Origin: Dehalococcoidia bacterium
Lineage (GTDB): Bacteria; Chloroflexota; Dehalococcoidia; Lucifugimonadales; UBA1127
Direction: 5' to 3'
DNA length: 64,000 nucleotides
NCBI GenBank assembly: GCA_965197715.1
Contig: OZ240224.1
Coordinates: 1,885,657-1,949,656 of the forward strand
Shown here: positions 1,570 to 57,173 of the stretch, one piece after another
Numbering within the stretch: the stretch's first letter is position 1
Layout: each line of letters opens with the position of its first letter
Position numbers and translations under genes: made by a program
The notes under the pieces: generated by a model
Databases searched by the model: none
Told to the model about the DNA's origin: nothing
Seen by the model: the letters and a program-made list of their open reading frames with translations, nothing else

Positions 1570-1772
1570 GGTCCGCACTCCCCTTCTTCCCACGACTCTT
1601 CGTGACTGGCCGTGGACTCTGGATGCTCGCGGTCGAGCGTAACCAAACTCGGAGGTACACACCGCTGCCCAGAGGCGACCGGAGGATGGCCGTGTCCTTC
1701 GCCGGGCCGCAATGCGTTGTCCACGGTTATAGCACCGCGCTTGGGGCATGTCAAACCCCTAGCCCACGGCGC

Positions 1773-3790: not shown

Positions 3791-4354
3791 CTAAGCGTCT
3801 GCTTCCTCCATTTGTTCGAGGCGACGCTGCATTACCGTAACCAACCTCTGACTGGGGCTGCTCAGCACCGTGACAACCCGCTGCGCCGGTGCGTTGAGCC
3901 CAGAGACCAGCCGGGTCATGAGCCCCGCCAACTGTCCCATGAACTGCGCGGCCAACACGGGGCGAGGAGGCAGGTCAGCCAGGGTTGTCACTCCGTTGGG
4001 GCCCAGGACCTCACGGTCGATGACGACGCCGTGAACGGCCAGTGGGAGGCGGGAAGCACGGAGGTACTCGTTGAGTGCCTGCGCGGCCTCCACAGGGTCA
4101 GCGTATCCCAGCACCAGGCCGGTGGCCCCCTGCAACAGCTCCTTGATCTGCGGACGGCCGATCTCCTCCGCCGCAATGGCTGTCACCGTGTTCTTGACGA
4201 CGCGGTACTCGATCCCCTTCTCCCGGAGGGCCCGGCGCAGGCGCGTCATGGCCTCGCCGTTCAATCCGGTGAAGCTGGTGCCGATGACCACGGAGCTCCT
4301 GGAGAGGAGGTCCTTCAGCTGCGCAACAGCTTCCACATTCTTCTGAGATGGCAT
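3791..4354 (-). CDS. rplJ: 50S ribosomal protein L10
   Basis: 187 aa, immediately upstream of rplL in canonical order. L10-like N-terminus [13 protein letters not shown]. Confidence 0.93.
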
Positions 4355-4594
4355 CTACTGCTCCCTTCAGCCGGGGACGGATTCCGGGATCCGATCTCCA
4401 AAACAAAGGCCCTGGCCGCAGACCAGGGCATCGACGCATTGCTGCATTCGACAAATGCCTCGGTGGGCGTCAGTACATTACGGCCCAAGGCCACCCACTG
4501 TCTGCGGCGTGCTTTCTATTCTACTCGACGGAGCGCTTGCTGGGAAGCCGCCCCGCTGAATCGCATGTGGCTGTGTTGCTCCCTCACCACAGAG
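4355..4594 (-). promoter_or_regulatory. long structured rplJ 5' leader (candidate L10-leader autoregulatory element)
   Basis: 240-nt non-coding gap between rplA and rplJ with several GC hairpins (e.g. GTGGGTGGCC...GGCCGT...CGCCCAC). The position matches the known L10 leader. Not checked against a covariance model. Confidence 0.35.
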
Positions 4595-5329
4595 CTACTG
4601 GACGCGCATCGCCTGGGCCTGCGCGAGGTCCAGCTTGGCGCTCGGCCCCATGGACGTGGACAGGTGGATGGCCTTGTATAGCTGGCCCTTCACCCCGTCG
4701 GGGCGGGCCTTGGTCACGGTGTCCAAGACCAGGGCCAGATTGTCCCTCAGGTCGCTCGTTGCAAAGCTGACCTTGCCTATTGGGCAGTGGATATTCGCCG
4801 TGCGGTCCATTCGAAGCTCCACGCGGCCCCCCTTCGCCTCCCGGACTGCGCGGGGCACGTCCTGCGGCTGCACAACAGTCCCCGTGCGTGGGTTCGGCAT
4901 GAGGCCTCGGCGCCCCAGGACCCGGCCCAACCTGCCAATCTTGCCCATCATGTCCTGCGTTGCAACGGCCACGTCGAACTCCACCCAGCCGTCCTTTTCG
5001 ATCCGCTGGATGGTCTCGTCATCGCCAATGTAGTCTGCCCCGGCCTCTCTCGCCGCAGCCGCAACGGGCCCCTGCACAAAGGCCAACACACGCTGGGGCT
5101 TTCCCGTGCCGTGTGGAAGCAGGGCGATGGTGCGGATGAGTTGGTCGGCGTGGCGCGGGTCCGCATTGGTGCGGATATGCACCTCCACCGTCTCGTCGAA
5201 GTTCGCCTGAGAGGCCTCCTGCAAGAGCTGGAGGGCCTCCTCGGGCGCGTACCCCATGGTGGAGTCGAACCGCTGGGCAGCGGCCCGGTAGCGCTTCCCG
5301 CCTTTTGTAACGGTTGTGCCAGTGGTCAC
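4595..5329 (-). CDS. rplA: 50S ribosomal protein L1
   Basis: ORF 4595..5557 trimmed to GTG 5329, one nt after the rplK stop. VTTGTTVTKGGKRYRAAAQRFD... matches the L1 N-terminus (KRxxA...). The longer ORF overlaps rplK out of frame. Confidence 0.9.
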   Translation of the reverse strand: MTTGTTVTKGGKRYRAAAQRFDSTMGYAPEEALQLLQEASQANFDETVEVHIRTNADPRHADQLIRTIALLPHGTGKPQRVLAFVQGPVAAAAREAGADYIGDDETIQRIEKDGWVEFDVAVATQDMMGKIGRLGRVLGRRGLMPNPRTGTVVQPQDVPRAVREAKGGRVELRMDRTANIHCPIGKVSFATSDLRDNLALVLDTVTKARPDGVKGQLYKAIHLSTSMGPSAKLDLAQAQAMRVQ

Positions 5330-5330
5330 C

Positions 5331-5759
5331 TTACCCTTCCTCCACAATGATGCCCATGCTCCTGGCCGTGCCTTCCACGATCCGCTGGGCCGTCTCCAGG
5401 CTGGAAGCGTTGAGGTCCGGCATCTTGGTCTGGGCGATTTCCCGCACCTGGCTCCGTGACACGGAGCCGAGGTTTTGCCGTGCGGCTTCACCGCTGCCCT
5501 TCTCCAGCCTTGCCGCCTTCTTGAGCAGCTCTGAGGCTGGCGGCGTGCGAGTGACAAATGTGAAGGACCGGTCCTCGAAGATGGTGATGACCACGGGGAC
5601 CACGGTCCCTTGCTGAGACGCCGTCTTGGAGTTGTACTCCTTGACGAAGCCCATGATGTTGACCCCGTGCTGGCCCAGGGCCGGTCCCACCGGCGGGGCG
5701 GGCGTCGCCTCGCCGGCGGGGATTTGAAGCTTCACAAGAGCTCGAACCTTCTTTGCCAT
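5331..5759 (-). CDS. rplK: 50S ribosomal protein L11
   Basis: [43 protein letters not shown] is a textbook L11 N-terminus. Start at ATG 5759. Confidence 0.95.
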
Positions 5760-5820
5760 TGGCTTTCTTTCTACTGGCGGTGTTCTGCGGCGCTTCCTTC
5801 GCTGGAGTCCCCGATGCCGC

Positions 5821-6447
5821 CTAGCTGATGCGCTCCACCTGGAGGAAGTCCATCTCCACCGGCGTCTCGCGGCCCAGCATGGAGATGAGGACCCGGACCT
5901 TGCCCTTATCCGCGTAGATCTCGTCCACGGTCCCGATGAACTCCTTGAACGGTCCATCCACAATCTTGACGTTCTGGCCGATGGTAAAGCCCACCTTGGC
6001 CCTGGGCTGCGCCGCCTCCATCCGCCGGAATATCGTGGCCACCTCTTGTTCCGTCAGCGGAATCGGCTTGGAGCGCTGCTGGTGCTCCTCGTCCGCGGAG
6101 ATGAATCCCGTAACCCCCGGCGTGTTGCGGACCACGTACCAGCTCTGGTCGTCCATGACCATCCGGACCAGGACGTAGCCGGGGTACATGCGCTCTCGCT
6201 TCGGAGTGCGCCGCCCTTCCTTGATCTCTACTACCTCTTCCGTGGGCACCACCACCTCGAAGATCTTGTCGCGCACGTCCATGGTCGCGATGCGCTGCTC
6301 CAGGTTCTTCTTGACCCGGTCCTCCATTGTGGAGTAGCAGTGCATAATGTACCAGGAACCCTCCTGGGAGCCGATGGCAATCCGCTGCTCCTGTGCGTCA
6401 GCAGCCTTCAGTGGCTGCTCCGCCTGCTGTACCCGTTGCTGCGTCAA
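5821..6447 (-). CDS. nusG: transcription termination/antitermination factor NusG
   Basis: TTG start with GAGGAG 7 nt upstream. [19 protein letters not shown] (NGN domain) and [21 protein letters not shown] (KOW domain). Confidence 0.9.
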
Positions 6448-6475
6448 TGGTTACTCCTCTACCGCCCGGCATCCG

Positions 6476-6721
6476 TCAGCCGCCAAGGAAGGACCGCCCC
6501 AGTATGTTGAAGACAAAGTCGATGATCCCCAACGCCAGGGCGATGACTCCCGCCAGGGCGATGACGATGCCGGTCAGACGGATAGCCTCGCGGCGCGTGG
6601 GCCACTCTGCGCGGCGGAGCTCCATCCAGACCTCCACGAAAAACTGTATCGGGCCCAGCCGGCGGATTCCCGTCGCTCGCTGGTCTCGAAGTATGGATCC
6701 GCGGGGGGTGGAACGTGCCAC
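6476..6721 (-). CDS. secE: preprotein translocase subunit SecE
   Basis: IQFFVEVWMELRRAEWPTRREAIRLTGIVIALAGVIALALGIIDF is the conserved SecE core plus TM helix. Start placed at GTG 6721, just after the rpmG stop; the exact start is uncertain. Confidence 0.65.
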   Translation of the reverse strand: MARSTPRGSILRDQRATGIRRLGPIQFFVEVWMELRRAEWPTRREAIRLTGIVIALAGVIALALGIIDFVFNILGRSFLGG

Positions 6722-6726
6722 GCGCT

Positions 6727-6891
6727 CTACCGTACCTCTCTGTGCATCTTGTGCGTCCGGCAGCGGGGACAGTACCTGTTCCGCTCCAGCCGCTGGGGAT
6801 CGTTTCGCCGGTTCTTGCTGATGTTGTAGGTCCGCTCCCGGCACTCAGAGCACTGGAGCGAGACTAGCACGCGGTCACCCTTCTTTGCCAT
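6727..6891 (-). CDS. rpmG: 50S ribosomal protein L33
   Basis: Own translation (under 60 aa, so not in the ORF track): MAKKGDRVLVSLQCSECRERTYNISKNRRNDPQRLERNRYCPRCRTHKMHREVR, with CxxC...CxxC Zn-ribbon L33. Confidence 0.9.
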   Translation of the reverse strand: MAKKGDRVLVSLQCSECRERTYNISKNRRNDPQRLERNRYCPRCRTHKMHREVR

Positions 6892-6906
6892 GACTCCTCG
6901 CTTCTC

Positions 6907-8109
<1,203 letters not shown>

Positions 8110-8151
8110 TGCAACGACTCCTTCTTGATGCTATTTCTCTTGCATGCTCGC

Positions 8152-8226
8152 TGGAGCCCACAGCCGGAATCGAACCGGCGACCCCGTTCTTACCAAGAAC
8201 GTGCTCTACCTCTGAGCTATGTGGGC
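8152..8226 (-). tRNA. tRNA-Thr (anticodon GGU), CCA encoded
   Basis: Hand-folded cloverleaf: GCCCACA/TGTGGGC acceptor, anticodon arm CGTTC-TTGGTAA-GAACG, T arm GCCGG-TTCGATT-CCGGC. Directly upstream of tuf, as thrT-tufB in E. coli. Confidence 0.9.
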
Positions 8227-8250
8227 AGGGTTGGCTATAGCGACGGAATC

Positions 8251-8279
8251 AGTATAGCATTGGGAATCCCTTCTCTCAA
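8251..8279 (-). promoter_or_regulatory. sigma70-like promoter for tRNA-Thr(GGU)-tuf operon
   Basis: On the minus strand: TTGAGA (8274-8279), 17-nt spacer, TATACT (8251-8256). About 25 nt upstream of the tRNA 5' end. Confidence 0.45.
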
Positions 8280-8711
8280 CTTACCGCGCTCGCTCACTGC
8301 ACATGAGATAGGGCAGACCCATAGGCGCCTGCGCCGGCAGCTACGCTCCTAGCCCTTCCAGGGAATCGCCGGACAAGCTCTTGTGCCGAGGCGTCATGGT
8401 GTGGGTTGGTAGGAAACCCGCCAAGCGCGGCCGCACCACCCTGTACTGCCAAAACAAGCGCATCATTGTTACCGACGGGCGCACTGAGCCCGGTCCTAGT
8501 CTCCCGCCCAGACGGCATGGCGTTCCGGGGCTCGATCTGTGTGGCCCGTGAGGGAGGGGACACTCGTGGGGACTATCTTCCCGACGGCGTGGGCCTCTAT
8601 GACTCAGGCGAAGCTGTCGCACCACCTAGCGGGACGGGGTCATCCCGACCGTGCCTTGCCACCCAGCACGGTAGCCTTGTTGTACCCGCGTGTGGGTGTG
8701 CGCACTCCGTG

Positions 8712-8795
8712 TGGAGGGGGTAGGATTCGAACCTACGTAGCCCGTCGGGCGCCAGATTTACAGTCTGGTGCGTTTGGCCGCTCCGCCACCCCTCC
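8712..8795 (-). tRNA. tRNA-Tyr (anticodon GUA), long variable arm, no encoded CCA
   Basis: GGAGGGG/CCCCTCC acceptor, CCAGA-CTGTAAA-TCTGG anticodon arm, GTAGG-TTCGAAT-CCTAC T arm. Closely parallels E. coli tyrT architecture. Confidence 0.9.
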
Positions 8796-8889
8796 GAGGG
8801 GGTCAAGTGTAGCATAGGTCCCCTGGGCCGCCAACCCTGAGCCCAAGGGCCCTTCCTATGCCCGCGGCGCTGTTGGAGTCTGCTGCACA

Positions 8890-8962
8890 GCCCGAGAGGG
8901 GATTCGAACCCGCTAACCTGCCGATTACAAGTCGGCTGCGCTGCCATTGCGCCACTCGGGCA
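8890..8962 (-). tRNA. tRNA-Thr (anticodon UGU)
   Basis: GCCCGAG/CTCGGGC acceptor, GCCGA-CTTGTAA-TCGGC anticodon arm, TTCGAAT T loop. The T stem (GCGGG/CCCCT) has one C-C mismatch and one G-T pair in my hand fold, hence the lower confidence. Confidence 0.7.
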
Positions 8963-9428: not shown

Positions 9429-10700
9429 CTAAGCCGTCGTGTCCGCTCCCTGGGTTGCCTTGGCCGCCTCTTCCAGGGTTGCGGAGTTGGGCGTCATCAG
9501 CGCGATGGACCGGGCGCGGTACACCTCGCCGTGGCTGGCGGCATATGGCTCGACACCCTCCATCAGGCTCCGGGCCTCCGACAGCAACCGCCGCCTGGCC
9601 GCTATGATGGCCGAGTCGCTGGTCCCCAGGTGCTCCTGGGACCGGTCGACGATGGCGCCCATCCCTTCGATCACCGCCATGTCCTGGGCCTGGATGCCCC
9701 AGATTCCCGTGAAGTTGTAGGTCCGCTGCATCTCCCGGTCCATGAGGTAGTCGTTGTCCATGTTGGCCAGGGGCCGGTAGGCGCCCGGAGCCACCTCCTC
9801 GTGAAAATAGCCGCCATCCTCGTATTCGGCGCGTTCAGCGGCCGTTAGGGGGCGGTCCGGGTTCCACGACACCCGGAACACCATGGCGTTCTCATCGTCT
9901 ATTGGCACGTAGGAGTTGCTCGTCATCACTGCGTCCTCCTCCGCCGGAACGATCATGTGGAAGGGGAGGAACCAGGGCGTTATGCGCCAGTATGCGTTCT
10001 CCTTGGCGTCCCTCCGCGCCCCGATGAGCAGGCCGTGGTCGGTCTCCTTGAGAAAGAACCGCGGGGACCCGTCGTTGAAGGCGTAGACCAGGTCCCCCTG
10101 TCCGGAGATGGTCAATGAGTACTGGGGCAGATCCAAGCGCCTGTGCAGGAAGCTGATGTGGCTGGAGTCGATACCGCCTTCCAGCGCCTGCATGTAGCTG
10201 CACTGCTGCACGCACTTGGTGACGTGGACGTGGCTCTGCGGCACTCTGGTCCAGCCCAGCTCCGGGAGCTGCGGTGTCAGCTCTCGTGGCCCCAGGTACG
10301 CCCAGACCATGCCGCTCCGCTCCTGGGTCGGGTACGCCATGGCCTGTATCTTCTCTTTGAAGTTGCTCTCCGGGGGCTCGGAGGGCATGTCGACGCAGGC
10401 GCCGTTCACGTCGAACTTCCAGCCGTGGTAGACACAGCGAAGGCCGCACTCCTCGTTGCGGGCGAAGAAGAGGTGGGCGCGCCGGTGTGGACATCGGGCT
10501 TGCAGCAGTCCCACCGCACCGCTGGTGTCTCTGAATGCGACCAGGTCCTCGCCGAGAAGCCGTACCCGCACCGGGGGACTGTCCGGCTCAGGCACTTCTT
10601 CGGACAGCAGCGCCGGGACCCAGAACCGTCGGAGCAGGTTCCCCATCGGGTCCCCCGGCCCGATGCGACAGAGGAGTTTGTTGTCTTCCAGCGACAGCAT
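9429..10700 (-). CDS. Rieske [2Fe-2S] non-heme-iron oxygenase, alpha-subunit-like
   Basis: CPHRRAHLFFARNEECGLRCVYHGWKF is a CxH...CxxH Rieske motif. A large C-terminal catalytic domain follows (SSHISFLH...). Confidence 0.85.
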   Translation of the reverse strand: MLSLEDNKLLCRIGPGDPMGNLLRRFWVPALLSEEVPEPDSPPVRVRLLGEDLVAFRDTSGAVGLLQARCPHRRAHLFFARNEECGLRCVYHGWKFDVNGACVDMPSEPPESNFKEKIQAMAYPTQERSGMVWAYLGPRELTPQLPELGWTRVPQSHVHVTKCVQQCSYMQALEGGIDSSHISFLHRRLDLPQYSLTISGQGDLVYAFNDGSPRFFLKETDHGLLIGARRDAKENAYWRITPWFLPFHMIVPAEEDAVMTSNSYVPIDDENAMVFRVSWNPDRPLTAAERAEYEDGGYFHEEVAPGAYRPLANMDNDYLMDREMQRTYNFTGIWGIQAQDMAVIEGMGAIVDRSQEHLGTSDSAIIAARRRLLSEARSLMEGVEPYAASHGEVYRARSIALMTPNSATLEEAAKATQGADTTA

Positions 10701-23242: not shown

Positions 23243-23590
23243 CTAGCCGGCCAGCACTGCGAGGGCCTTCTTGTCCGCACCCACGATGACCCGGTCTCCC
23301 GCAACCGTGATGGGCCGGCGGATCAGCCTGGGCTCCTTGAGCATGAGCTGAAGCAACTCGTCTTCGCCAATGCTCTCGGGTGCTCGCCCAAGGGCTTTGA
23401 AGGAAGGGCTCTTCCACGCAAAGAGCTCGGAGGGTGAGCGTCCGCCTAGGAGGTCACGCAGCTCTTCCTCCGAGAAGGGGTCTCGAAAGAAGTCGCGCTC
23501 CTCAAGCTCGATGCCCATCTGTGAGAGCGACGCCCTCACGTTACGACACGTAGATCAGCGCGTCCACCAATAGAAGGCTGCCCTGTTCAT
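23243..23590 (-). CDS. ArsC/Spx/YffB-family thiol oxidoreductase with predicted selenocysteine (in-frame TGA at 23555-23557)
   Basis: ATG 23590 is preceded by CCAGGAGGAACC. Reading MNRAAFYWWTR-TGA-STCRNVRASLSQMGIELEERDFF... is continuous with ORF 23243..23539. It aligns to Spx [30 protein letters not shown] with TGA at the first Cys of CxxC. The C-terminal LIRRPI motif is present. Confidence 0.65.
23521..23539 (-). promoter_or_regulatory. candidate bacterial SECIS stem-loop
   Basis: On the mRNA, 15 nt after the UGA: GUGAGGGC-GUC-GCUCUCAC, an 8-bp stem (one G-U pair) with a 3-nt loop containing GU. The apical loop starts 24 nt after the UGA, inside the usual window. Confidence 0.45.
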
Positions 23591-23714
23591 GGTTCCTCCT
23601 GGATCACGTCGGCATGCGGCAAGAGGCGCGCGCGTCAGCGAGTGCGACGCTAGGGCCGCCCGATGGGGGGGTTCAAGGGCTGAGAGGGTAGAGCGCTGGG
23701 CCGGCAAGAGCTCC

Positions 23715-28056: not shown

Positions 28057-28488
28057 TTACATCTTGAACTCGGCGGGCTGGACGTACTCCCACGGCTCGC
28101 CTGCCCGGTACTTGCCCGCGATCTCCAGCACCTTCACCGCGAACTGGAAGGCGTAGGGGATGCCCGGCCCGCCCGGTACGAAGCCGCCGCCGATGGTCCC
28201 AACGGTCACCGCCTCAAAGATCTCTTCGTCGGTAGCCCCGGCCTCGATGGCGGGGACGACGTGGATAAGGCAGGCCGGCGAGCGATACGCGACGCCAATG
28301 GCCGTGAACATGAGCTCCTTCACCTTCCGGGAAAGGGCCCCGTCCGCCCAAATGCTCTCATAGAAGTCCGCGAACGTCTCACCGGAGGCCGGCGCCACCG
28401 TGTTGATGATCTGGAACATCCGCGGCGTGAAGAGCATCTTCTGCTTCATGTAGTCGTTCGCTTGCTGGGCACGCGCCTGGTCAACCAT
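28057..28488 (-). CDS. carboxymuconolactone decarboxylase / AhpD-like family protein
   Basis: Start at ATG 28488 (GAGGAGG SD). LSRKVKELMFTAIGVAYRSPACLIHVVPAIEAGATDEEIFEAV is the CMD-domain core. The first Cys of the usual CxxC is Ser here (SPAC). Confidence 0.75.
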   Translation of the reverse strand: MVDQARAQQANDYMKQKMLFTPRMFQIINTVAPASGETFADFYESIWADGALSRKVKELMFTAIGVAYRSPACLIHVVPAIEAGATDEEIFEAVTVGTIGGGFVPGGPGIPYAFQFAVKVLEIAGKYRAGEPWEYVQPAEFKM

Positions 28489-28593
28489 AGTGTTCCCTCC
28501 TCGATCAAGTCGATAGTGTTGGCTTGGATGGCAATACACGCGGGGCTGCCTCCCTGGATAACCCAGGCGCTCCCGGCACCCGGCCCGCCATGC

Positions 28594-29911: not shown

Positions 29912-30991
29912 CTACATGCCGTAGAAGTGGGCAGGGTTGTCCGAGAGGATCTTGTCCATGACCGCCGGCGAGACGTCCTCGCGACCGCGGAGCAGTTTGA
30001 TGAGCTCCGGCTCCACTGACTGGTCCCCGTGCCCGTAGTCTGAGCCGGTGATCATGTTGTCTTCGCCAATGTGGTCGAGAATGTAGGGTATGTCCTCATC
30101 CGCTTCGCATGCTACGAAGAGACGGTTGCTGCGGAAATAGTCCGGTCCAAACGCCGCCCGCCCCGTCTTGAAGCGCCGGTTGAGAAAGTGCGCCAGATAG
30201 GGGACCCAGGACGAGTTTGCTTCAATGAATCCCCATCGCAGGTCCGGGAACCGCTCCGGTATCTTGTTGGCCGCTAGGTCGTAGAAAGCCATGACGGGCA
30301 GTAGCCGCACGTCGGGAAACACGAAGCTCAACCTGCTGTCGAAGAACTCCGTGAGTGTTGGAGACCCTGGGCCCGTGTGGATGCAAATGGGAAGGTCCAG
30401 GCGCTGCGCTTCCTCATAGATGGGGAAGAAGTAAGGCTCCGCCAGCGACCGGTCCTTCTCCACGCCCCGGAACAGAACGCCAACGGCGCCATGCTCCTTG
30501 CCGTAGTTCATCTCCTCTATGGACGCCTCCAGGTTGCGTAGAGCAGGCACGACCACCCAGCGCATGCGGCCCCCGGACCGAGAGCACGTGTCCGCCATGA
30601 ACCGGTTGTAGGCCCGGGCAAGGGCGACCTCCAGGTCGACGTCATGCGTGAGGAAGCCGATGAACAGCGTTGGATAGATGATCTGCACGTCGACACCCAT
30701 CTTGGTGGCGTCCAAGAGCCGCGCGTCGATGTCCGTTATTGCGCGCTTGTGCCAACCCGGTGAATTCGCAATCTCCGGGTCGATGGGCGGCGTGCCCAGC
30801 GCCTGGCCGCCCTTTCCCTGGGGGTGCGGCACCAGCTTGCTGTCGATGATCCAGAAGTTGCGCATGTTCCCATTGTTGGGATCCGCCCAGGCAACAAGAC
30901 TTGGCTTGCGATGGGCCAACTCCTCGTCGAAGAACTCCCAGATAGGCTCTGACTCAATTATGTGCGTGTCCGCGTCGATTACCCTTGTCAT
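29912..30991 (-). CDS. amidohydrolase-2 family protein
   Basis: MTRVIDADTHIIESEPIWEF... with AGGAGG SD. GSDYGHGD...NPAHFYGM C-terminus. Confidence 0.85.
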   Translation of the reverse strand: MTRVIDADTHIIESEPIWEFFDEELAHRKPSLVAWADPNNGNMRNFWIIDSKLVPHPQGKGGQALGTPPIDPEIANSPGWHKRAITDIDARLLDATKMGVDVQIIYPTLFIGFLTHDVDLEVALARAYNRFMADTCSRSGGRMRWVVVPALRNLEASIEEMNYGKEHGAVGVLFRGVEKDRSLAEPYFFPIYEEAQRLDLPICIHTGPGSPTLTEFFDSRLSFVFPDVRLLPVMAFYDLAANKIPERFPDLRWGFIEANSSWVPYLAHFLNRRFKTGRAAFGPDYFRSNRLFVACEADEDIPYILDHIGEDNMITGSDYGHGDQSVEPELIKLLRGREDVSPAVMDKILSDNPAHFYGM

Positions 30992-37306: not shown

Positions 37307-38356
37307 CTAGAGGGCATAGAGAGCCCTGGCGTTGTCGCCCATGATCTTGTCCGCTGAGCCCGCCGGAATCTTGCCATCCTCTCGCAGGCGCCGCAGGGCC
37401 TCGATCTCGGAAGACGTGTCATGATGGCCGTAGTCTGATCCGATGACGATGTTGTCCTCTCCGGCATACTCCAGCACGTAGTCCAGGTCGTCCTCGGTCT
37501 GGCAGGCCACGTAGACCCGGTTCTCTTTGAGGACCTCCGCCGCAGTGAACCCTCCCCCGCGCTTTCGCACCCGCAGCCCCATGTCGTTGAGCGCATAGGG
37601 GACCCACTGGGAGCTCACCTCCACAAAGGCCCAGCGCAGGTCGGGGAACCTCTCCGGCACACGCTCCATCAGCAGGCTATGGAAGGCGCCGATGGCGGGG
37701 AGCTTGAACTGGGCGATGCCGCGGTCGTTCAGCAGGACGTCGTACGTGCCGAAGGAGCCCGTGCCGGCGTGGACGCAGATGGGCATGTCCAGTCGCTGCG
37801 CTTCCTCGTACAGCGGGAAGAGGTACGGGTCCGGCAGGCGCAGGTTCCCTTCGACGCCGCGCATGAAGACCCCGCAGGCCCCGTGCTCCTTCCCGAAGTT
37901 GATCTCCTCTATCGCCTTGTCCATATTGAGCACCGGCGGAATGACCGCCCAGCGGAGCCGGTCCGGCGCCGCCGCCCAGATGTCCGCCATCCAGCGGTTG
38001 TAGCTCCAGCTAAGGGCGTACTCCTGCTGCGGGCGGATGGTCAGGGGCCGCAGGAACATGGTGGGATAGAGAACGTGAACGTCCACGCCGAGCTCGTCCA
38101 TGTGCGCCAGCCGGCGGCGGACGTCACTCATCTCCCGCGTGCCTTGCGTCGTTCCCGTGGCGTTGTCGACGTCCGTCTCCCGGCCGGCGCTGATGTTCTT
38201 CAGAAAGGCGCGGCCCTCTATGAACCAGTACTCCAACTGGCCCTCGGACTCCGGGTCGACGAGGATCTTGGGCCGAAGCGAGCGCATGTCCCCGTCCAGG
38301 TACTCGTAGGTGCGTCGCGTCTCAACCACGTGCGTGTCGGCGTCGATGACAGTCAT
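37307..38356 (-). CDS. amidohydrolase-2 family protein
   Basis: ORF trimmed to ATG 38356 (AAGGAGG SD). MTVIDADTHVVETRRTYEYLD...GSDYGHHD...NARALYAL. Confidence 0.85.
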   Translation of the reverse strand: MTVIDADTHVVETRRTYEYLDGDMRSLRPKILVDPESEGQLEYWFIEGRAFLKNISAGRETDVDNATGTTQGTREMSDVRRRLAHMDELGVDVHVLYPTMFLRPLTIRPQQEYALSWSYNRWMADIWAAAPDRLRWAVIPPVLNMDKAIEEINFGKEHGACGVFMRGVEGNLRLPDPYLFPLYEEAQRLDMPICVHAGTGSFGTYDVLLNDRGIAQFKLPAIGAFHSLLMERVPERFPDLRWAFVEVSSQWVPYALNDMGLRVRKRGGGFTAAEVLKENRVYVACQTEDDLDYVLEYAGEDNIVIGSDYGHHDTSSEIEALRRLREDGKIPAGSADKIMGDNARALYAL

Positions 38357-38778
38357 CCCCCGCCTCCTTGCCTCTCTAAACTGGCGCGGCGCGGCCAATG
38401 TCTCCCGCTTCTCAATACGCGCATGGACATCCCAATGCGCAAATCGCCGCACGGAGTGACTGGAAGCATAGGAACGGGATTCCCGCTTGTCAAGTAGACC
38501 CCTGACCTCAGTGTGAAGCACCGGCGCAGTGGAGCGCCGGGGCCCACACGCCCCGGGCGGGGGTTCGCCGCTTCCGCTTGGCGGATGACAGACCGGAATC
38601 CCGGGGTAGCGCGACGAAAGCCAGTACCGAAGAGCCAGTCTTTACTCGCCTTCCGTACATATAGAGCTCTCCAGCGTCCGCGCTGCTTGACAGGTGGTCA
38701 CCGCGGTGCTATACCAACCGCACCCTGCGGGCGGCTCATGCCGTTGAGCGCAACGCAACGTGACGGGAGGCCGATGCA

Positions 38779-39858
38779 ATGGCGGTGATCGATGCCGATG
38801 CCCACGTGATCGAAACCGAGCGCACGTGGGACTATCTGGACGCGTCACAGAAAGGCTTCCGACCGCTTCTCCTCAGGGGGACCGCGGCATCAGGGGCAGA
38901 GAGGCAGTTCTGGTACATTGATGGTAGGCTCAAGCGCTCCTCCGAGGCCAGTGGACCAACGACACCCGGCCAGGTCCACAAGGAGAAGCTCTCCGGAAGA
39001 GACCGGACCTCGGCCGCGTCCCGCCAGCTGGACGACGTTGGGGCGCGCCTGGCTCACATGGACGAGCTCGGCATCGACATCCAGGTCCTCTATCCGACCA
39101 TCTACCTCACGCCCATCGCCTCCAGCCCTGATGCGGAAGTCGCCCTGGCCTGGAGCTACAATCGCTGGCTCGGCGATGCCTGGCGGCAGAGCGGCAATCG
39201 CCTGCGGTGGGTCATGGTGCCCGCCCTCCAGGACATGGATGCGACCCTGGAGCAGCTGAACTTCGCCAAGGAGAACGGCGGGTGCGGCGTGTTCATGCGC
39301 GGCATAGAGGGACGCAGGCTGCTCTTCGACCCATACTTCTTTCCGCTCTACGAGGAAGCCCAACGCCTGGACCTGCCCATCTGTATCCACGCGGGCGTGG
39401 GAAACAACGATTTCGCCGCCTTCTTCACGCCGGGCCCCTTCTCGGAGCCCTTCTCCGTGAACAAGCTCGGCGGCCTCAGCGCCTTCAACTCCCTCGTATT
39501 CCACGAAATCCCTGCCATGTTCCCCAAGCTACGGTTCGGGTTCCTGGAGTACCAGGCTCAGTGGGTCCCCTATCTCGTTCTCGACATGCAGCGGCGGCTG
39601 GAGAGGGAAGGAAAGTCCATACCGGCCAACCTGATCGAGGACAACCACATCTACGTGACCTGCGAGACCCACGACGACCTGCCGTACATCCTGGACTACA
39701 GCGGTGAGGGCAGCATCATTCTGGGCACCGACTACGGCCACGCGGGCAACACCGCTGAGCTGGAAGCGCTCTCTGTCCTGAGGAACAGGAAGGACCTCAG
39801 CGAGAGTGTCAAGGACAGGATCCTCGACGACAATCCCAGGGCGTTCTACGGTCTCTGA
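38779..39858 (+). CDS. amidohydrolase-2 family protein
   Basis: MAVIDADAHVIETERTWDYLD... with GGGAGG SD. GTDYGHAG...NPRAFYGL. Confidence 0.85.
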   Translation: MAVIDADAHVIETERTWDYLDASQKGFRPLLLRGTAASGAERQFWYIDGRLKRSSEASGPTTPGQVHKEKLSGRDRTSAASRQLDDVGARLAHMDELGIDIQVLYPTIYLTPIASSPDAEVALAWSYNRWLGDAWRQSGNRLRWVMVPALQDMDATLEQLNFAKENGGCGVFMRGIEGRRLLFDPYFFPLYEEAQRLDLPICIHAGVGNNDFAAFFTPGPFSEPFSVNKLGGLSAFNSLVFHEIPAMFPKLRFGFLEYQAQWVPYLVLDMQRRLEREGKSIPANLIEDNHIYVTCETHDDLPYILDYSGEGSIILGTDYGHAGNTAELEALSVLRNRKDLSESVKDRILDDNPRAFYGL

Positions 39859-43987: not shown

Positions 43988-45100
43988 ATGCCGACCATCG
44001 ACGCCGATTGCCACGTCATTGAAACCGAGCACGCCTGGGATTACCTGGATGAGTCTGAGAAGCAGTACAGGCCCATGCTGCTGAGTGGGACCACCGAGTC
44101 CGGCGTGGAGAAGCGCTTCTGGCTCATCGACGGCAAGCTGCGGCCGCGGCAGGCCAGCGCCGACCCCAACATCGGCGGCAGCAAGGACGACCTCTCCGGC
44201 CGGGGTCAGATACCGCCTGCCGCCCGCTTGCTGGATGACGTGTCCCTTCGCCTGGCCCACATGGACGAGCTGGACGTGGACATTCAGGTGTTGTACCCCA
44301 CTATCTTCCTGACGCCCATTGCCCAGCGCGTCGACGCGGAGGTTGCGCTCTGCAAGAGCTACAACCGGTGGCTCGCCGACATCTGGAGCCAGAGCAACGA
44401 CCGCCTGAGGTGGGTAGTGGTGCCGCCCCTCATGGACATCGACGCATCGATTTCAGAGCTCAGGTTCGGCAAGGAGAACGGCGCCTGCGGGATCTTCATG
44501 CGCGGCATCGAGCTGGACCGCCTCATGGTCGATCCCTACTTCCACCCCATGTATGAGGAGGCCCAACGCCTCGACATGCCCCTATGCGTCCACGCCGGCG
44601 TTGGGAGCAGCTACTGGGCCAGCATCTTCTCCGCCAAGGACTACACCGCCAACAAGACCACGGAGATCAGCGCGGAGGCCTTCTCTCGCAACAAGCTGGC
44701 GGGCATCAGCGCGTTCAACTCCATGCTCACCCACAAGGTCCCGGACCTCCTCCCCAACATGTTTCCCCGCCTCCGCGTGGGCTTCATCGAGCTCAGCGCC
44801 AGCTGGCTGCCCTACGTGGTCACCGACCTCCGAAGGCGCCTGGAGCGCGGCGGCGACTCCCTGGGCGACGACCCCCTGGGCGACGCCAGGTTCTACGTCG
44901 CCTGTCAGACCAACGACGACCTCCCCCACATCCTCAGGCACGTCGGCGAGAACAACCTGGTCATCGGCTCCGACTACGGCCACTCGGACACGTCCAGTGA
45001 GCTGGAAGCGCTGAGAAACCTGAAGACGAAGGGTGAGCTGGCCCCGGCCGTCGTCGACAAGATCCTCCAGGACAACCCCAAGGCCCTGTACGGCCTGTAG
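43988..45100 (+). CDS. amidohydrolase-2 family protein
   Basis: MPTIDADCHVIETEHAWDYLD... with GGAGG SD. GSDYGHSD...NPKALYGL. Confidence 0.85.
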   Translation: MPTIDADCHVIETEHAWDYLDESEKQYRPMLLSGTTESGVEKRFWLIDGKLRPRQASADPNIGGSKDDLSGRGQIPPAARLLDDVSLRLAHMDELDVDIQVLYPTIFLTPIAQRVDAEVALCKSYNRWLADIWSQSNDRLRWVVVPPLMDIDASISELRFGKENGACGIFMRGIELDRLMVDPYFHPMYEEAQRLDMPLCVHAGVGSSYWASIFSAKDYTANKTTEISAEAFSRNKLAGISAFNSMLTHKVPDLLPNMFPRLRVGFIELSASWLPYVVTDLRRRLERGGDSLGDDPLGDARFYVACQTNDDLPHILRHVGENNLVIGSDYGHSDTSSELEALRNLKTKGELAPAVVDKILQDNPKALYGL

Positions 45101-45197
45101 CCCTGCCGCGGGGAACACGGCCCGGGCCGGCGGGCCCGCGACACAGCCAACCGGAGCAGCCCAGAGACGCAGCGAGAACCGAAGGAGAGGAGCAGCC

Positions 45198-46244
45198 ATG
45201 CGAGTAGACGTAGACGCCCACGTTGACGAGACCGAAGCCACCTGGGAGTACCTGGAACCCGGCGAAGAGTACCTTCGCCCCATCACCGTCGACCCTGGAC
45301 GGTCCATCAGCGTCACCGACGCCAGGCCGCATCGCCTGTGGATCATCGACGGCCGCCTTCAGCTTCGCCGCTTTCGCGACGACGTGCGCACCGGCACCGT
45401 TCGCGAGACGCGCGAGCTCGAGGACGTGGAGGCCCGCGTCAAGCACATGGACGAGCTCGACATCGACATCCAGGTCCTCTATCCGACCCTCTTCCTGACC
45501 GGCATCACCGCGCGCGCAGAGGTGGAGCTTGCCCTCACGCGCTCCTACAACCGCTGGATCGCGGAGCGGACGCGGGAGAGCGGCGGCCGCCTCCGCTGGG
45601 TCGCGCTGCTCCCCTTCCTCGACATGGACGCCGCCGTCCAGGAGCTCCACTGGGCCAAGGAGAACGGCGCTGTCGGCGTCTTCAAGAAGGGTATCGATTG
45701 CGGCCGCAACGCCAGCGATCCCTACTTCTTCCCCCTCTATGAGGAGGCCAACCGCCTGGACATTCCCCTGTGCATGCACTTCGCGACGGGCAACCCCCCC
45801 GCCCCCTCCGACAGCGGCCAGATGAGCGGCAGGTTCAACGCGATCTCCGCCTTCACCGACCTCGCCCAGAGCCGCGTCCCGGACCGCTTCCCCGACCTCC
45901 GCGTCGGCTGGATCGAGACCGGCGCCTCCTGGATCCCCTTCCTCATGGCCGACCTGGAGGCCAAGAAGCAGAAGCGCACCTTCCAGAGCTTCGACCTCAA
46001 GGATGACCTGTTCCGCCACTGCAGGTTCTACGTTGCGTGCGACTCCTCCGACGACCTCCCCTACATCCTCAGGTACGGCACCGAGGACAGCCTGATGATC
46101 GGCACGGACTACACGCACGCGGACCAGTCGGCGCAGATCGACGCGCTGGACATCATCGAGCAGCGCGGGCGGGAGGGGGAGATCCCCATCGAGGTCGCGC
46201 ACAAGATCATCGACGACAACCCTCGGGCTTTCTACGGGCTGTAG
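45198..46244 (+). CDS. amidohydrolase-2 family protein
   Basis: ORF trimmed to ATG 45198 (GAAGGAGAGGAG upstream). MRVDVDAHVDETEATWEYLE...GTDYTHAD...NPRAFYGL. Confidence 0.85.
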   Translation: MRVDVDAHVDETEATWEYLEPGEEYLRPITVDPGRSISVTDARPHRLWIIDGRLQLRRFRDDVRTGTVRETRELEDVEARVKHMDELDIDIQVLYPTLFLTGITARAEVELALTRSYNRWIAERTRESGGRLRWVALLPFLDMDAAVQELHWAKENGAVGVFKKGIDCGRNASDPYFFPLYEEANRLDIPLCMHFATGNPPAPSDSGQMSGRFNAISAFTDLAQSRVPDRFPDLRVGWIETGASWIPFLMADLEAKKQKRTFQSFDLKDDLFRHCRFYVACDSSDDLPYILRYGTEDSLMIGTDYTHADQSAQIDALDIIEQRGREGEIPIEVAHKIIDDNPRAFYGL

Positions 46245-46259
46245 GGGGTCAGGGGGGAG

Positions 46260-46990
46260 CCCCCCGCGGCCCGGCACCCCAGGCCCCCGTACCCCGCGCC
46301 GCCACCCTGGATTCCCGGTCGCTGCGGACGGCTTGTGTGGGGGATGCCCCGCGCCGCCCTGCCACCCTGGATTCCCGCTTTCGCGGGAATGACGGAGTGG
46401 TGGGAGCGGGAATGACGTTGGGGGGTGTGCGGGAATGACGGTGGGTAGGTGCGGGGATGCACGGGTCGCTGGGGCGACGGCCGCGTGGGGGGAGAGTTGA
46501 GGGGTGGCGACAGCGGGGTCGCCGGCGGGCCTGGTTTGAATGTTTAGCTTCGTAGGATAGTGTAGGGTTTTTTTTGCGCTTTCTGAAGCTGGCAAGTGCA
46601 AAAAGGGCGATTGTTTGCTTTTGGGGCCGCGGCGTAGCTTCGGCGTGGGGTTGGCGATTTGATTGGATTTGGGGCGGGTCGCTGCCACGACGCACACCAG
46701 GCCCAGTACCCCGCGCCGCCCTGGATTCCCGGTCGCTGCGCGACGGCTTGTGGGCGTGGCTGCGCCCACGGCGTCGAGACGGCTGGGTGGGGCCACTGTG
46801 CGTGCTCATGGGTTGAGGATAGGGGATTGGGGGTCGAGGCGGTAGTGGCGGATGGCAGGTCGCTGCGGTCGGCGGCGCGACGGGCACGTGGGGGGTGCCC
46901 CGCGCCGCGCCGCCACCCTGGATTCCCGGTCGCTGGCGCGACGGCCTTGTGGGGGGAGGGTGTGCCGGGGGTGGGTGCGGGGATGACTGG
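46260..46990. repeat. 730-nt intergenic repeat field (hairpin families A and B, tandem CGGGAATGACG units, AT-richer core)
   Basis: Family A copies at 46305-46332, 46719-46746 and 46915-46944. Family B at 46365-46393. CGGGAATGACG occurs 3 times at 46383-46440. Core 46571-46620 is homologous to 12966-13020. All ORFs here are Pro/Arg/Gly junk. Confidence 0.7.
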
Positions 46991-47006
46991 GTTGTTCAGG
47001 TGTTCC

Positions 47007-49913: not shown

Positions 49914-49945
49914 GTGTGGTTTCGTCCTCTTGGTCCGTGACCAGT

Positions 49946-52393: not shown

Positions 52394-52668
52394 GTCGCTA
52401 GCGCGAGTCGCTGCGCGACGGCTTTGTGGGCGTCGCTACGCCGCCGGTAGGTTAGGGGGTGTGGCGACGTCTGACCTTGTCATTGGGTGATGGCTGAAGG
52501 GTGTGCGACGGCCTTGTTGGGGGCGGGTGGCAGGCGTCCGGTCGGGGGCGCTTGACGGCCCCATGCATCCCGGTACTATCATGCAGTCGGCGCGCAGGGC
52601 CGGCGGGGCTCCGGGTGTGGGGCGGGGCCGGCGGCTGTGGGGCCAGGCGACGGAAGGAGCACGCGGCG

Positions 52669-56996: not shown

Positions 56997-57005
56997 TTGC
57001 TGTGT

Positions 57006-57162: not shown

Positions 57163-57173
57163 GGGGTGGCCGC

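What the first reader, a model, noticed from the sequence alone, without database searches (positions are those of the whole stretch)
23243..23590. ArsC/Spx-family redox protein with an in-frame UGA at the CxxC position: likely selenoprotein missed by ORF calling
**Gene model.** The ORF track gives a 98-aa ORF (23243..23539) that starts at GTG and lacks the N-terminal active site of the ArsC/Spx/YffB fold. Reading further upstream in the same frame gives ATG at 23590, preceded by a perfect SD (CCAGGAGGAACC-ATG). This is followed by 11 sense codons, a TGA at 23555-23557, and then the annotated ORF without a frame change: MNRAAFYWWTR-U-STCRNVRASLSQMGIELEERDFF....

**Alignment.** This aligns residue for residue with B. 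subtilis Spx ([30 protein letters not shown]). The UGA falls exactly on the first Cys of CxxC, which gives UxxC.

**SECIS-like hairpin.** Fifteen nt after the UGA the mRNA can form GUGAGGGC-GUC-GCUCUCAC, an 8-bp stem with a GU-containing apical loop. The loop starts ~24 nt from the UGA, which is compatible with bacterial SECIS geometry.

**Why the short alternative is unlikely.** A strong SD driving only an 11-codon peptide directly fused in frame to a family domain is hard to explain otherwise.

**Prior knowledge.** From memory, ArsC-like proteins were among selenoprotein families predicted from ocean metagenomes. The family may therefore not be new, but this locus would be mis-annotated by default pipelines.
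Basis: partly seen in the sequence, partly recalled or inferred. Interest (0 to 1): 0.85.

Follow-up and report, generated by a model that had tools for sequence, protein, structure and literature searches.

The report
Selenocysteine ArsC/Spx-like redox protein gene
This is a real but already known kind of selenoprotein gene: a small Spx-like thioredoxin-fold protein whose active-site cysteine is replaced by selenocysteine encoded by UGA, which standard gene callers truncate in this genome and in its relatives.

Summary
On the minus strand, AGGAGG and ATG (23590) are followed by 11 codons, an in-frame TGA (23557-23555), and then the called 98-aa ORF. Together they form a 115-aa ArsC/Spx-fold protein with a U-x-x-C motif.

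All 86 sequences examined have TGA at this codon: the window, 80 species-representative genomes (mostly Dehalococcoidia/SAR202, a few Smithella/Syntrophales) and 5 metagenome contigs. The upstream codons are under protein-level selection, and full-length homologs carry Cys there.

The downstream hairpin (23539-23521) meets the published bacterial SECIS model. It covaries, constrains synonymous codon choice, and is absent from 4 of 5 Cys-form genes.

TGA is an ordinary stop elsewhere in the window. No selA/B/C/D gene lies in the window, so Sec machinery in this genome is untested. BSepDB reports 46-49 selenoproteins in Dehalococcoidia MAGs.

The family is not new. GOS 2008 "Arsenate reductase 2 (UxxC, cd03032 = ArsC_Spx)" contains Sec-annotated reads 45-46% identical to this protein. 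What is useful is practical: NCBIfam's selenoprotein model NF041106 does not capture this clade, so public records truncate it.

It is probably a selenol/thiol oxidoreductase or redox sensor. It is not a canonical arsenate reductase or Spx.

The parts
23595..23600 (-). Shine-Dalgarno AGGAGG, 4 nt before the start codon
   Evidence: Read directly. An SD-like motif plus a start codon 6-13 codons upstream of the TGA occurs in 73 of 83 relatives.
23243..23590 (-). Full coding sequence of the 115-aa selenoprotein (ATG 23590, Sec-UGA 23557-23555, stop TAG 23245-23243)
   Evidence: Pfam ArsC spans residues 7-109, across the UGA. In the 93-95%-identical relatives L001/L006 an in-frame stop lies 8 codons upstream of this ATG, which fixes the start.
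23555..23557 (-). In-frame UGA read as selenocysteine (residue 12, first position of U-S-T-C)
   Evidence: TGA is at this codon in 86 of 86 sequences. It aligns to Cys in full-length homologs, and to Spx Cys10 and ArsC Cys12.
23546..23548 (-). Codon of the resolving Cys15 (UGU) of the UxxC motif
   Evidence: Cys in 83 of 83 sequences, encoded by TGC or TGT. It aligns to Spx Cys13.
23521..23539 (-). SECIS hairpin inside the coding sequence: 8-bp stem GUGAGGGC/GCUCUCAC with apical loop GUC (23531-23529)
   Evidence: dG is -11.9 kcal/mol, the loop starts with G-U, and the loop begins 23 nt after the UGA. It passes all four constraints of the published bSECIS model (model from PMC13188914). Covariation was measured, synonymous-site constraints, and absence from 4 of 5 Cys forms.
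23243..23539 (-). The truncated 98-aa ORF that standard callers report (GTG start); not a separate gene
   Evidence: The same truncation appears in public records, for example GenBank MCH8109976.1, a 98-aa 'hypothetical protein'. About 107 of the 120 listed closest protein clusters are 87-105 aa.

Best explanation
The locus encodes one 115-aa cytoplasmic thioredoxin-fold protein of the ArsC/Spx superfamily. Its active site is Sec12-x-x-Cys15.

Decoding. Translation starts at ATG 23590. At UGA 23557-23555 the ribosome inserts selenocysteine instead of terminating. The 19-nt hairpin that begins 15 nt downstream (23539-23521, apical loop G-U-C) acts as a bacterial SECIS element. It recruits SelB-GTP-Sec-tRNA(Sec). 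The role of the hairpin is inferred from comparative data, and SelB binding itself was not shown.

Protein function. Sec sits at the N-cap of helix alpha-1, the nucleophilic position of a CxxC redox centre. The protein most likely works as a selenol/thiol-disulfide oxidoreductase or redox sensor that cycles through a Sec12-Cys15 selenenylsulfide. Its substrate is unknown. This part is inferred from fold and motif only.

It belongs to the selenoprotein family first reported from ocean metagenomes as 'Arsenate reductase 2 (UxxC)'.
For: Gene model
- The sequence is as described.
- The ArsC domain spans the UGA.

Conservation of the UGA
- TGA is at the same codon in the window, in 80 GTDB species-representative genomes and in 5 metagenome contigs, 86 of 86 sequences.
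- One database protein with 'W' at that site is in fact TGA.

Coding upstream of the UGA
- Tyr at -5 in 77 of 83 sequences (TAC or TAT).
- Trp at -3 in 82 of 83.
- Arg/Lys at -1 in 81 of 83, through five different codons.
- A start codon with SD in 73 of 83.

Sec/Cys pair
- Full-length homologs have Cys in that column.

SECIS
- The window hairpin passes the four published constraints, as do 72 of 81 relatives.
- 86% of cells are paired, against 36-62% in slid registers.
- 61 double-compensatory cells, against 21 +/- 6 in shuffles; 0 of 500 shuffles reach the observed value.
- Loop G27 is invariant although it is the third base of a codon that encodes A, E, V, Q or G.
- Arg at +7 is AGR in 70 of 73 cases and Leu at +10 is CUY in 83 of 83.
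- 4 of 5 Cys-form genes lack the hairpin (dG -2.0 to -4.1), against a mean of -9.7 for 81 Sec forms.

Standard genetic code
- TGA ends 6 of 34 Pfam-confirmed genes in the window, two of them exactly at the last Pfam profile position.
- TGA ends 21 of 52 called genes in relatives.

Fold
- The AF2 model of the 60%-identical Cys homolog has pLDDT 92.7, with Cys12 at the N-cap of helix 13-24.
- Its best PDB neighbours are Spx structures, TM 0.86.

Lineage and literature
- Dehalococcoidia MAGs carry 46-49 selenoprotein genes (BSepDB, PMC13326102).
- GOS Sec-annotated reads under 'Arsenate reductase 2 UxxC' are 45-46% identical without gaps, with U aligned.
Against: - No selA, selB or selD domain was found in any of about 40 annotated window genes.
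- No tRNA-Sec was found in the window or in 60 related loci. Sec machinery in this genome is therefore assumed from the lineage, not shown.
- No curated Rfam SECIS model matches.
- The single-sequence hairpin is not better than chance.
- One Cys form (L087) keeps the hairpin, so the hairpin is not perfectly diagnostic.
- The biochemical function is entirely inferred. Gene neighbourhood is not conserved and gives no hint.
Confidence: 0.92

Rival explanations
1. The UGA is a genuine stop. The functional product is the truncated 91-98-aa protein started at GTG 23539 or ATG 23518, and the upstream 11 codons are a leader peptide or are non-coding.
For: This is what gene callers and public records report. 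TGA is a normal stop in this genome.
Against: - The truncated product would lack strand beta-1 and the whole active-site motif.
- The upstream codons are conserved at the protein level, with synonymous variation, across 83 sequences, and they match beta-1 of the ArsC fold.
- Cys homologs are continuous across this point.
- No SD precedes the internal starts.
Confidence: 0.02
2. The TGA is a sequencing or assembly error, or a recent nonsense mutation, so the gene is a pseudogene.
For: A single in-frame stop in one window cannot by itself be told apart from an error.
Against: The same TGA is present in 86 of 86 independent assemblies that span 48-95% protein identity. Both flanks are under purifying selection.
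Confidence: 0.01
3. The UGA is recoded, but not to Sec. It could be read as Trp or Gly through code reassignment, or as Cys through a SelB-like hairpin-dependent system or near-cognate read-through.
For: Some assemblies were translated with UGA=Trp by their callers (P0033/L088). Sequence analysis cannot identify the inserted residue. Sec machinery was not seen in the window.
Against: - TGA terminates genes at their homologous C-termini in this window and in relatives, so there is no global reassignment.
- The element fits the Sec-specific bSECIS model, with the conserved loop G-U.
- The lineage is documented as rich in selenoproteins.
- The family was already classified as a selenoprotein family.
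Confidence: 0.03
4. Function-level rival: the protein is a Spx-type regulator that binds RNA polymerase alpha-CTD and uses a Sec-Cys redox switch, not a free-standing oxidoreductase.
For: - Spx is the best sequence and structure match.
- The U-x-x-C-R-K-x-R motif matches Spx C-T-S-C-R-K-A-R.
- Spx Arg91 and Arg92 are conserved in 84 of 84 sequences, and Arg60 is R/K in 68 of 84.
- The best NCBIfam hit is Spx/MgsR TIGR01617.
Against: - The score is below the TIGR01617 cut-off (64.6 against 75.05) and far below the Spx equivalog cut-offs.
- Spx Gly52, the alpha-CTD contact, is not conserved (P, S, A, K or G), and the C-terminal tail of about 20 residues is absent.
- YffB and ArsC-like structures superimpose equally well (TM 0.85-0.87).
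Confidence: 0.1
5. Function-level rival: the protein is a glutaredoxin-coupled arsenate reductase with Sec in place of Cys12.
For: Sec aligns to ArsC catalytic Cys12, and Arg94 is conserved. The literature name of the family is 'arsenate reductase 2'.
Against: - The score is below the TIGR00014 cut-off (45.5 against 106).
- ArsC Arg60 is S, A or N, and Arg107 has no counterpart in 84 of 84 sequences.
- No ars genes lie nearby.
- A second Cys at +3 is a feature of Spx and thioredoxin, not of R773 ArsC.
Confidence: 0.04

Closest known systems
GOS 'Arsenate reductase 2 (UxxC; cd03032 = ArsC_Spx)' selenoprotein family (Zhang & Gladyshev 2008, PMC2398784)
   Same: - It has the same UxxC motif and the same ArsC/Spx fold.
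- Sec-annotated reads JCVI_READ_1318105 and JCVI_READ_1095390070075 align without gaps at 46% and 45% identity (E 2e-34 and 6e-30), with U on the window's UGA.
- They share the signature Y-x-W-x-K/R-U-S/T-T-C ... ERDFF ... EPRLIRRP.
   Different: - The GOS heading mixes at least two sequence types, and the other (DWYYMRGGUTTC...) is a different clade.
- The GOS reads are low-GC marine fragments without genome assignment.
- Here the clade is placed in Dehalococcoidia/SAR202 (plus Smithella/Syntrophales), and Sec is found in 80 of 80 species representatives.
NCBIfam NF041106 'ArsC family (seleno)protein' (the 'Arsenate reductase-like protein, UxxC' of the 2026 review, PMC13188914)
   Same: It is an ArsC-fold selenoprotein with a UxxC motif.
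   Different: The window protein scores 25.4 bits against a cut-off of 85. Clade relatives score 28-33 bits, whereas the other GOS subtype scores 116 bits. This is a separate clade, so that model does not rescue the annotation.
Spx (Bacillus subtilis; PDB 1Z3E, 3GFK, 7F75)
   Same: - It is the best sequence match (E about 3e-10) and the best structural match (TM 0.86, rmsd 2.0 A).
- Its redox CxxC lies at the same position.
- It shares the R-K-x-R stretch after the motif and the RRP motif.
   Different: - Identity is only 27-28%.
- This protein has Sec instead of Cys10.
- Gly52 is not conserved.
- The C-terminal helix and degron are missing.
- Scores fall below the Spx model cut-offs.
- Spx is characterised in Firmicutes (own knowledge).
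R773/E. coli ArsC (PDB 1I9D) and the Sargasso/GOS 'Arsenate reductase 1 (UxxS)' selenoproteins
   Same: The fold is the same, and the nucleophile column is the same (Cys12 or Sec).
   Different: - The motif there is UxxS/CxxS rather than UxxC.
- The Arg60/Arg94/Arg107 triad is reduced to Arg94 only.
- The TIGR00014 cut-off is not met.
E. coli fdhF-type bacterial SECIS / consensus bSECIS model (PMC13188914 Fig. 2A)
   Same: It is a coding-region hairpin just 3' of the UGA, with a small apical loop that starts G-U, spacing of 22-24 nt, and a stem of 6-8 bp.
   Different: - The primary sequence is unrelated.
- No Rfam SECIS family matches.
- A subclade of 13 sequences uses a variant stem with a bulged A.

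Membership tests
Bacterial selenoprotein gene (Sec-UGA plus bSECIS) | The in-frame UGA aligns with Cys in homologs (Sec/Cys pair) | tested here: met
   Cys occupies that column in P0003, P0011, P0012, P0015, P0030, P0031, P0036, P0059, P0096 and P0120. The codon is TGC in L086, L087, L089, L090 and L091.
Bacterial selenoprotein gene (Sec-UGA plus bSECIS) | Coding conservation on both sides of the UGA, and conservation of the UGA itself | tested here: met
   TGA is present in 86 of 86 sequences. Per-codon conservation with synonymous variation holds upstream and downstream.
Bacterial selenoprotein gene (Sec-UGA plus bSECIS) | SECIS: 3-9 nt loop, 4-16 bp stem, G in the first two loop positions, 16-37 nt spacing, MFE <= -7.5 kcal/mol | tested here: met
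   The window hairpin has loop GUC, an 8-bp stem, 23-nt spacing and -11.9 kcal/mol. 72 of 81 relatives also pass. Covariation supports the stem.
Bacterial selenoprotein gene (Sec-UGA plus bSECIS) | selA, selB, selC (tRNA-Sec) and selD in the same genome | not testable with these tools
   Only 64 kb of the genome is available. None of these genes lies in the window. At lineage level, Dehalococcoidia MAGs have 46-49 selenoproteins (PMC13326102).
Bacterial selenoprotein gene (Sec-UGA plus bSECIS) | Selenium actually incorporated at the UGA position | not testable with these tools
   This needs 75Se labelling or mass spectrometry.
ArsC/Spx/YffB superfamily (Pfam PF03960) | Score above Pfam's gathering threshold, with the ArsC fold | tested here: met
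   60.5 bits against a cut-off of 24. The AF2 model of the Cys homolog has TM 0.78-0.87 to Spx, YffB and ArsC structures.
GOS 'Arsenate reductase 2 (UxxC)' selenoprotein family | UxxC motif, and sequence similarity to the family's deposited Sec sequences | tested here: met
   The motif here is U-S-T-C. Two reads under that heading are 45-46% identical without gaps, with E 6e-30 and 2e-34.
GOS 'Arsenate reductase 2 (UxxC)' selenoprotein family | Best CDD domain is cd03032 (ArsC_Spx) | not testable with these tools
   No CDD library is available. The proxy is that the best NCBIfam and PDB hits are Spx/MgsR. cd03032 = ArsC_Spx according to PMC8755942.
NCBIfam NF041106 ArsC_rel_Se_1 | Score at or above the curated cut-off of 85 bits | tested here: not met
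   25.4 bits. Relatives score 28-33 bits, while the other GOS subtype scores 116 bits.
Spx/MgsR regulators (TIGR01617; Spx NF002459) | Score at or above the curated cut-offs (75.05 and 123 bits) | tested here: not met
   64.6 and 45.8 bits. The Cys relatives P0003 and P0059 score 74.2 and 75.0 bits, which is borderline.
Spx/MgsR regulators (TIGR01617; Spx NF002459) | N-terminal CxxC redox switch | tested here: met
   It is present as UxxC, aligned to Spx Cys10 and Cys13 in 84 of 84 sequences.
Spx/MgsR regulators (TIGR01617; Spx NF002459) | Gly52 alpha-CTD contact and a C-terminal extension (about residues 108-131) | tested here: not met
   The Gly52 column is P, S, A, K or G, and the proteins end about 8 residues after the last Spx-aligned strand. 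The roles of these features are taken from own knowledge of the Spx literature.
Spx/MgsR regulators (TIGR01617; Spx NF002459) | Binding to RNA polymerase alpha-CTD | not testable with these tools
   This needs an interaction assay.
Glutaredoxin-coupled arsenate reductase ArsC (TIGR00014) | Score at or above the curated cut-off of 106.05 bits | tested here: not met
   45.5 bits.
Glutaredoxin-coupled arsenate reductase ArsC (TIGR00014) | Catalytic Cys12 plus the Arg60/Arg94/Arg107 triad | tested here: not met
   The Cys12 column is Sec and Arg94 is kept in 84 of 84 sequences. The Arg60 column is S, A or N, and Arg107 aligns to a gap (the 1I9D sequence was verified).

The most novel reading that the evidence does not exclude
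The clade could be a selenocysteine-containing Spx-like redox sensor that binds RNA polymerase. That would be a selenoprotein transcription regulator, conserved as an obligate Sec protein across SAR202/Dehalococcoidia. To my knowledge no bacterial selenoprotein is known to act as a transcription factor.

The evidence does not exclude this. Spx is the nearest characterised relative, and the CxxC-RKxR and RRP motifs are kept. However, the alpha-CTD contact Gly52 and the C-terminal tail are missing.
Probability: 0.07. Interest if true: 0.7.

Novelty: new member of a known kind. Interest (0 to 1): 0.3.

Why it matters
For this genome the finding corrects a gene model. A 98-aa 'hypothetical' fragment is really a 115-aa selenoprotein with a Sec-x-x-Cys active site.

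More broadly, the same truncation affects this gene in all 80 species-representative genomes retrieved, and in most public protein records. No selenoprotein-aware NCBIfam model covers the clade, since NF041106 misses it. A dedicated model would fix the annotation in the genomes that carry this gene.

Biologically, Sec at this site in every species sampled marks the protein as a core selenoprotein of SAR202-type Dehalococcoidia. Cys replacements are rare, and one of them still carries the SECIS hairpin.

None of this changes current understanding of Sec decoding. The family has been listed since 2008.

Tried and rejected
- Sec machinery. I looked for it in the window through Pfam on about 40 genes, ARAGORN and Rfam, and found none. 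ARAGORN on 60 related loci found no tRNA-Sec. Both results are uninformative, because so little of each genome is held.
- Rfam. A permissive scan of the locus for curated SECIS families gave only a spurious lncRNA hit at E 1.9.
- Second selenoprotein in the window. A six-frame scan for TGA-bridged ORFs gave no convincing candidate, and it proved leaky because it missed the target itself. The CMD/AhpD-like gene at 28057-28539 reads S-P-A-C with no TGA.
- Gene neighbourhood as a functional clue. It is not conserved: 15 of 80 loci follow rpsF-ssb-rpsR, and the PAC2/DUF3179 context occurs only in the closest relatives.
I modelled the 60%-identical Cys homolog instead. Fold comparison did not separate Spx, YffB and ArsC.
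- Mukai et al. 2017 (PMC5424206) was checked for an alternative UGA decoding in Chloroflexi. It concerns SepRS/SepCysS and is not relevant.
- The sigma-70 promoter and intrinsic terminator scan found nothing.
- DNA for two further Cys forms (P0011, P0015) could not be fetched.
Full report
OBSERVATION

On the minus strand the sequence reads ...tccAGGAGGaacc ATG AAC AGG GCA GCC TTC TAT TGG TGG ACG CGC TGA TCT ACG TGT CGT AAC GTG AGG GCG TCG CTC TCA CAG ATG.... ATG is at 23590-23588, AGGAGG at 23600-23595, and the in-frame TGA at 23557-23555. The frame continues to TAG at 23245-23243, giving 115 codons plus the stop. The mechanical ORF list contains only the 98-aa GTG ORF at 23243-23539. Pfam's ArsC model (PF03960, 60.5 bits against a cut-off of 24) aligns from residue 7, so it starts before the TGA.

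IS THE UGA A CODON?

A protein search with U replaced by C gave 611 relatives. Most of the closest are 87-105 aa and cover only 71-85% of the query. A minority of 114-118 aa cover all of it. In the alignment, the full-length proteins have Cys exactly at the UGA column (…W-x-x-C-S/T-T-C-R…), and the short ones begin just after it.

The DNA of five short relatives showed the same in-frame TGA, preceded by a conserved F/Y-Y-x-W-x-R peptide. A scan of one genome per GTDB species found 293 relatives. The best 80 loci are mostly Dehalococcoidia/SAR202/Chloroflexota MAGs, with a few Smithella/Syntrophales. All of them carry TGA at this codon, which makes 86 of 86 sequences counting the window. One database protein with Trp at the site is a TGA translated under another code.

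Codon-by-codon statistics on 83 distinct sequences show protein-level selection upstream of the TGA:
- Tyr at -5 in 77 (TAC 63, TAT 14).
- Trp at -3 in 82.
- Arg/Lys at -1 in 81, through CGC, CGT, AGG, AAG and CGG.
- A start codon with an SD-like motif 6-13 codons upstream in 73.

In the 93-95%-identical relatives an in-frame stop lies 8 codons before the ATG, which fixes the start. TGA is not reassigned. It terminates 6 of 34 Pfam-confirmed genes in the window, two of them exactly at the last position of the Pfam profile. It also terminates 21 of 52 called genes in relatives. A pseudogene, a sequencing error or a leader-peptide arrangement cannot explain these facts.

THE HAIRPIN

Taken alone, the hairpin (5' arm 23539-23532, loop GUC 23531-23529, 3' arm 23528-23521) is unremarkable. 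The 71-nt fold has a z-score of -0.62, and 8.7% of all TGA trinucleotides in this 65% GC window pass the same test.

Comparatively it is strong. It satisfies all four constraints of the published bacterial SECIS model (PMC13188914):
- loop of 3-9 nt and stem of 4-16 bp
- G in the first two loop positions, followed by G or U
- 16-37 nt between the UGA and the loop
- MFE <= -7.5 kcal/mol

The window element has an 8-bp stem, loop G-U-C, 23-nt spacing and -11.9 kcal/mol. 72 of 81 relatives also pass, and the failures are marginal.

On the ungapped alignment of 81 sequences, the named helix has 86% of cells paired, against 36-62% with the partner slid. Four of its eight pairs show double changes. 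There are 61 double-change cells against 21 +/- 6 in shuffles, and 0 of 500 shuffles reach the observed value. The 13 'unpaired' sequences are one subclade that folds with a bulged A.

The structure also bends synonymous codon usage:
- The first loop base, G27, is invariant, although it is the third base of a codon that encodes Ala, Glu, Val, Gln or Gly.
- The Arg codon in the 5' arm is AGA/AGG in 70 of 73 cases, while the other Arg codons of the gene are mostly CGN.
- The Leu codon in the 3' arm is always CUY.

As a control, four of five Cys-form genes lack the hairpin (local dG -2.0 to -4.1, with 2-4 of 8 register pairs). The 81 Sec forms average -9.7 (range -5.3 to -14.2). The one Cys form that keeps it (L087) belongs to the Smithella-like subclade next to Sec forms, which fits a recent Sec/Cys exchange. 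No curated Rfam SECIS family matches.

SEC MACHINERY

The window holds no tRNA-Sec and no SelA, SelB or SelD domain in about 40 annotated genes. The related loci hold no tRNA-Sec either. With 64 kb of a roughly 3 Mb genome, this says nothing either way.

The window is about 93.5% identical in nucleotides to the Dehalococcoidia chromosome OZ252022.1 (L006) and to contig L001. The rest of that genome could not be read here. At lineage level, BSepDB lists Dehalococcoidia MAGs among the ten bacteria with the most selenoprotein genes, at 46 and 49 (PMC13326102). This remains the one untested link.

WHAT THE PROTEIN IS

- Sequence. The closest solved proteins are Spx (E about 3e-10, 27-28% identity), with U12 on Spx Cys10 and Cys15 on Cys13.
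- Structure. An AlphaFold model of the 60%-identical Cys homolog P0003 is confident (pLDDT 92.7). It places residue 12 at the N-cap of helix 13-24, after strand 3-8, which is the nucleophilic position of a thioredoxin-fold CxxC. Foldseek gives TM 0.86 to Spx, 0.85 to YffB and 0.78-0.87 to ArsC-type proteins, so the fold does not separate the subfamilies.
- Functional columns, in an alignment of 84 reconstructed Sec proteins with R773 ArsC (sequence verified against 1I9D) and Spx. Sec aligns with ArsC Cys12. ArsC Arg94 is conserved, but Arg60 is S, A or N and Arg107 is absent. Spx Arg91 and Arg92 are conserved and Arg60 is R/K in 68 of 84. Spx Gly52 is not conserved and the Spx C-terminal tail is missing.
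- NCBIfam. Every subfamily score is below its cut-off: Spx/MgsR TIGR01617 64.6 against 75.05, ArsC TIGR00014 45.5 against 106, and ArsC_rel_Se_1 NF041106 25.4 against 85.
- Context. Gene neighbourhood is variable.

The best-supported reading is a small cytoplasmic selenol/thiol oxidoreductase or redox sensor that cycles through a Sec12-Cys15 selenenylsulfide. It is not a canonical arsenate reductase and not a canonical Spx. The substrate is unknown. This functional statement is inference from fold and motif.

COMPARISON WITH WHAT IS KNOWN

ArsC-type selenoproteins were first reported from the Sargasso Sea with a UxxS motif (PMC1088965). The GOS study lists 'Arsenate reductase (ArsC) 1, UxxS' and 'Arsenate reductase 2, cd03032, UxxC, 42 sequences' (PMC2398784). 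cd03032 is the ArsC_Spx subfamily (PMC8755942).

The GOS supplementary sequences under '#Arsenate reductase 2 UxxC' include JCVI_READ_1318105 and JCVI_READ_1095390070075. These align to the window protein without gaps at 46% and 45% identity (E 2e-34 and 6e-30), with U on the UGA. The family has therefore been known since 2008.

[quoted passage not shown] That model captures the other GOS subtype (116 bits) but not this clade (25-33 bits). This explains why records such as GenBank MCH8109976.1 remain 98-aa 'hypothetical proteins'. No paper in the library links Spx and selenoproteins by name.

VERDICT

It is a new member of a known selenoprotein family. Its value lies in annotation, and in the clean comparative picture: Sec in 80 of 80 species, a covarying SECIS, and loss of the SECIS in most Cys forms. 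It does not represent new biology.

Noticed in passing
window, 34 Pfam-confirmed genes throughout: Stop-codon usage is TAG 21, TAA 7, TGA 6 in a 65% GC genome, where TGA usually dominates (own knowledge). The close relative L001 shows the same trend (TAG 11, TGA 6, TAA 3). The more distant L003 and L004 do not. The sample is small and the cause is unknown.
   Followed up: partly
L087:2051-2401: A Cys-form (TGC) homolog in the Smithella-like subclade retains a perfect 8-bp SECIS-type hairpin (GCGAAGGA-GUU-UCUUUCGC, -9.8 kcal/mol). It looks like a 'fossil' SECIS after a recent Sec-to-Cys change, or a pre-adapted one.
   Followed up: partly
L088:233-583 (protein P0033); probably also P0092: A public ENA protein record has Trp at the Sec position because the caller translated TGA as Trp. 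The DNA has TGA and the usual hairpin. P0092 was not checked.
   Followed up: partly
A2 alignment; loci L010, L014, L024, L025, L027, L042, L046, L047, L056, L057, L063, L066, L079: A subclade with the ...VRAWLHE... peptide uses a variant SECIS stem with one bulged A (GUG-A-GAGC GUG GCUC CAC). It scores as 'unpaired' in the fixed register.
   Followed up: partly
window 56923-58460: tRNA-Gln(CTG) and tRNA-Glu(CTC) are followed directly by a tyrosine-integrase gene (57153-58460; Arm-DNA-bind_3, Phage_int_M and Phage_integrase domains). This is the classic signature of an element integrated at a tRNA.
   Followed up: no
window 44000-50400: This stretch has lower GC3. It holds a 1116-aa protein with an Eco57I-type restriction-modification methylase domain (47007-50357, -) and a 611-aa ORF with no Pfam hit (44961-46796, -). 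It may be a horizontally acquired island.
   Followed up: no
window 59675-63997 (-), runs off the window end: A giant protein of more than 1440 aa carries Spondin_N, fn3, cadherin-like, Calx-beta, DUF11 and cadherin domains. It is probably a cell-surface adhesin.
   Followed up: no
window 493-1749, 29912-30991, 37307-38521, 38779-39858, 53691-54767, plus 9429-10700 and 52501-53667: The window holds five Amidohydro_2 paralogs, a Rieske/LigXa-like oxygenase, a LigB-type ring-opening dioxygenase and three SBP_bac_5 transport proteins. This gene content is reminiscent of SAR202-type degraders of recalcitrant organic matter (own knowledge).
   Followed up: no
window 28057-28539 (-): A CMD/AhpD-like gene reads S-P-A-C-L-I-H where the family motif would be expected. 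It has a single Cys and no in-frame TGA, so it is not a second selenoprotein. CMD/AhpD-like proteins are a known CxxU selenoprotein family.
   Followed up: yes
window 3791-8961 (-): A conserved translation cluster lies here: tRNA-Thr, tRNA-Tyr, tRNA-Thr, tuf (6907-8109), nusG (5821-6447), rplA (4595-5557), the L10 leader RNA (4394-4525) and rplJ (3791-4354).
   Followed up: no
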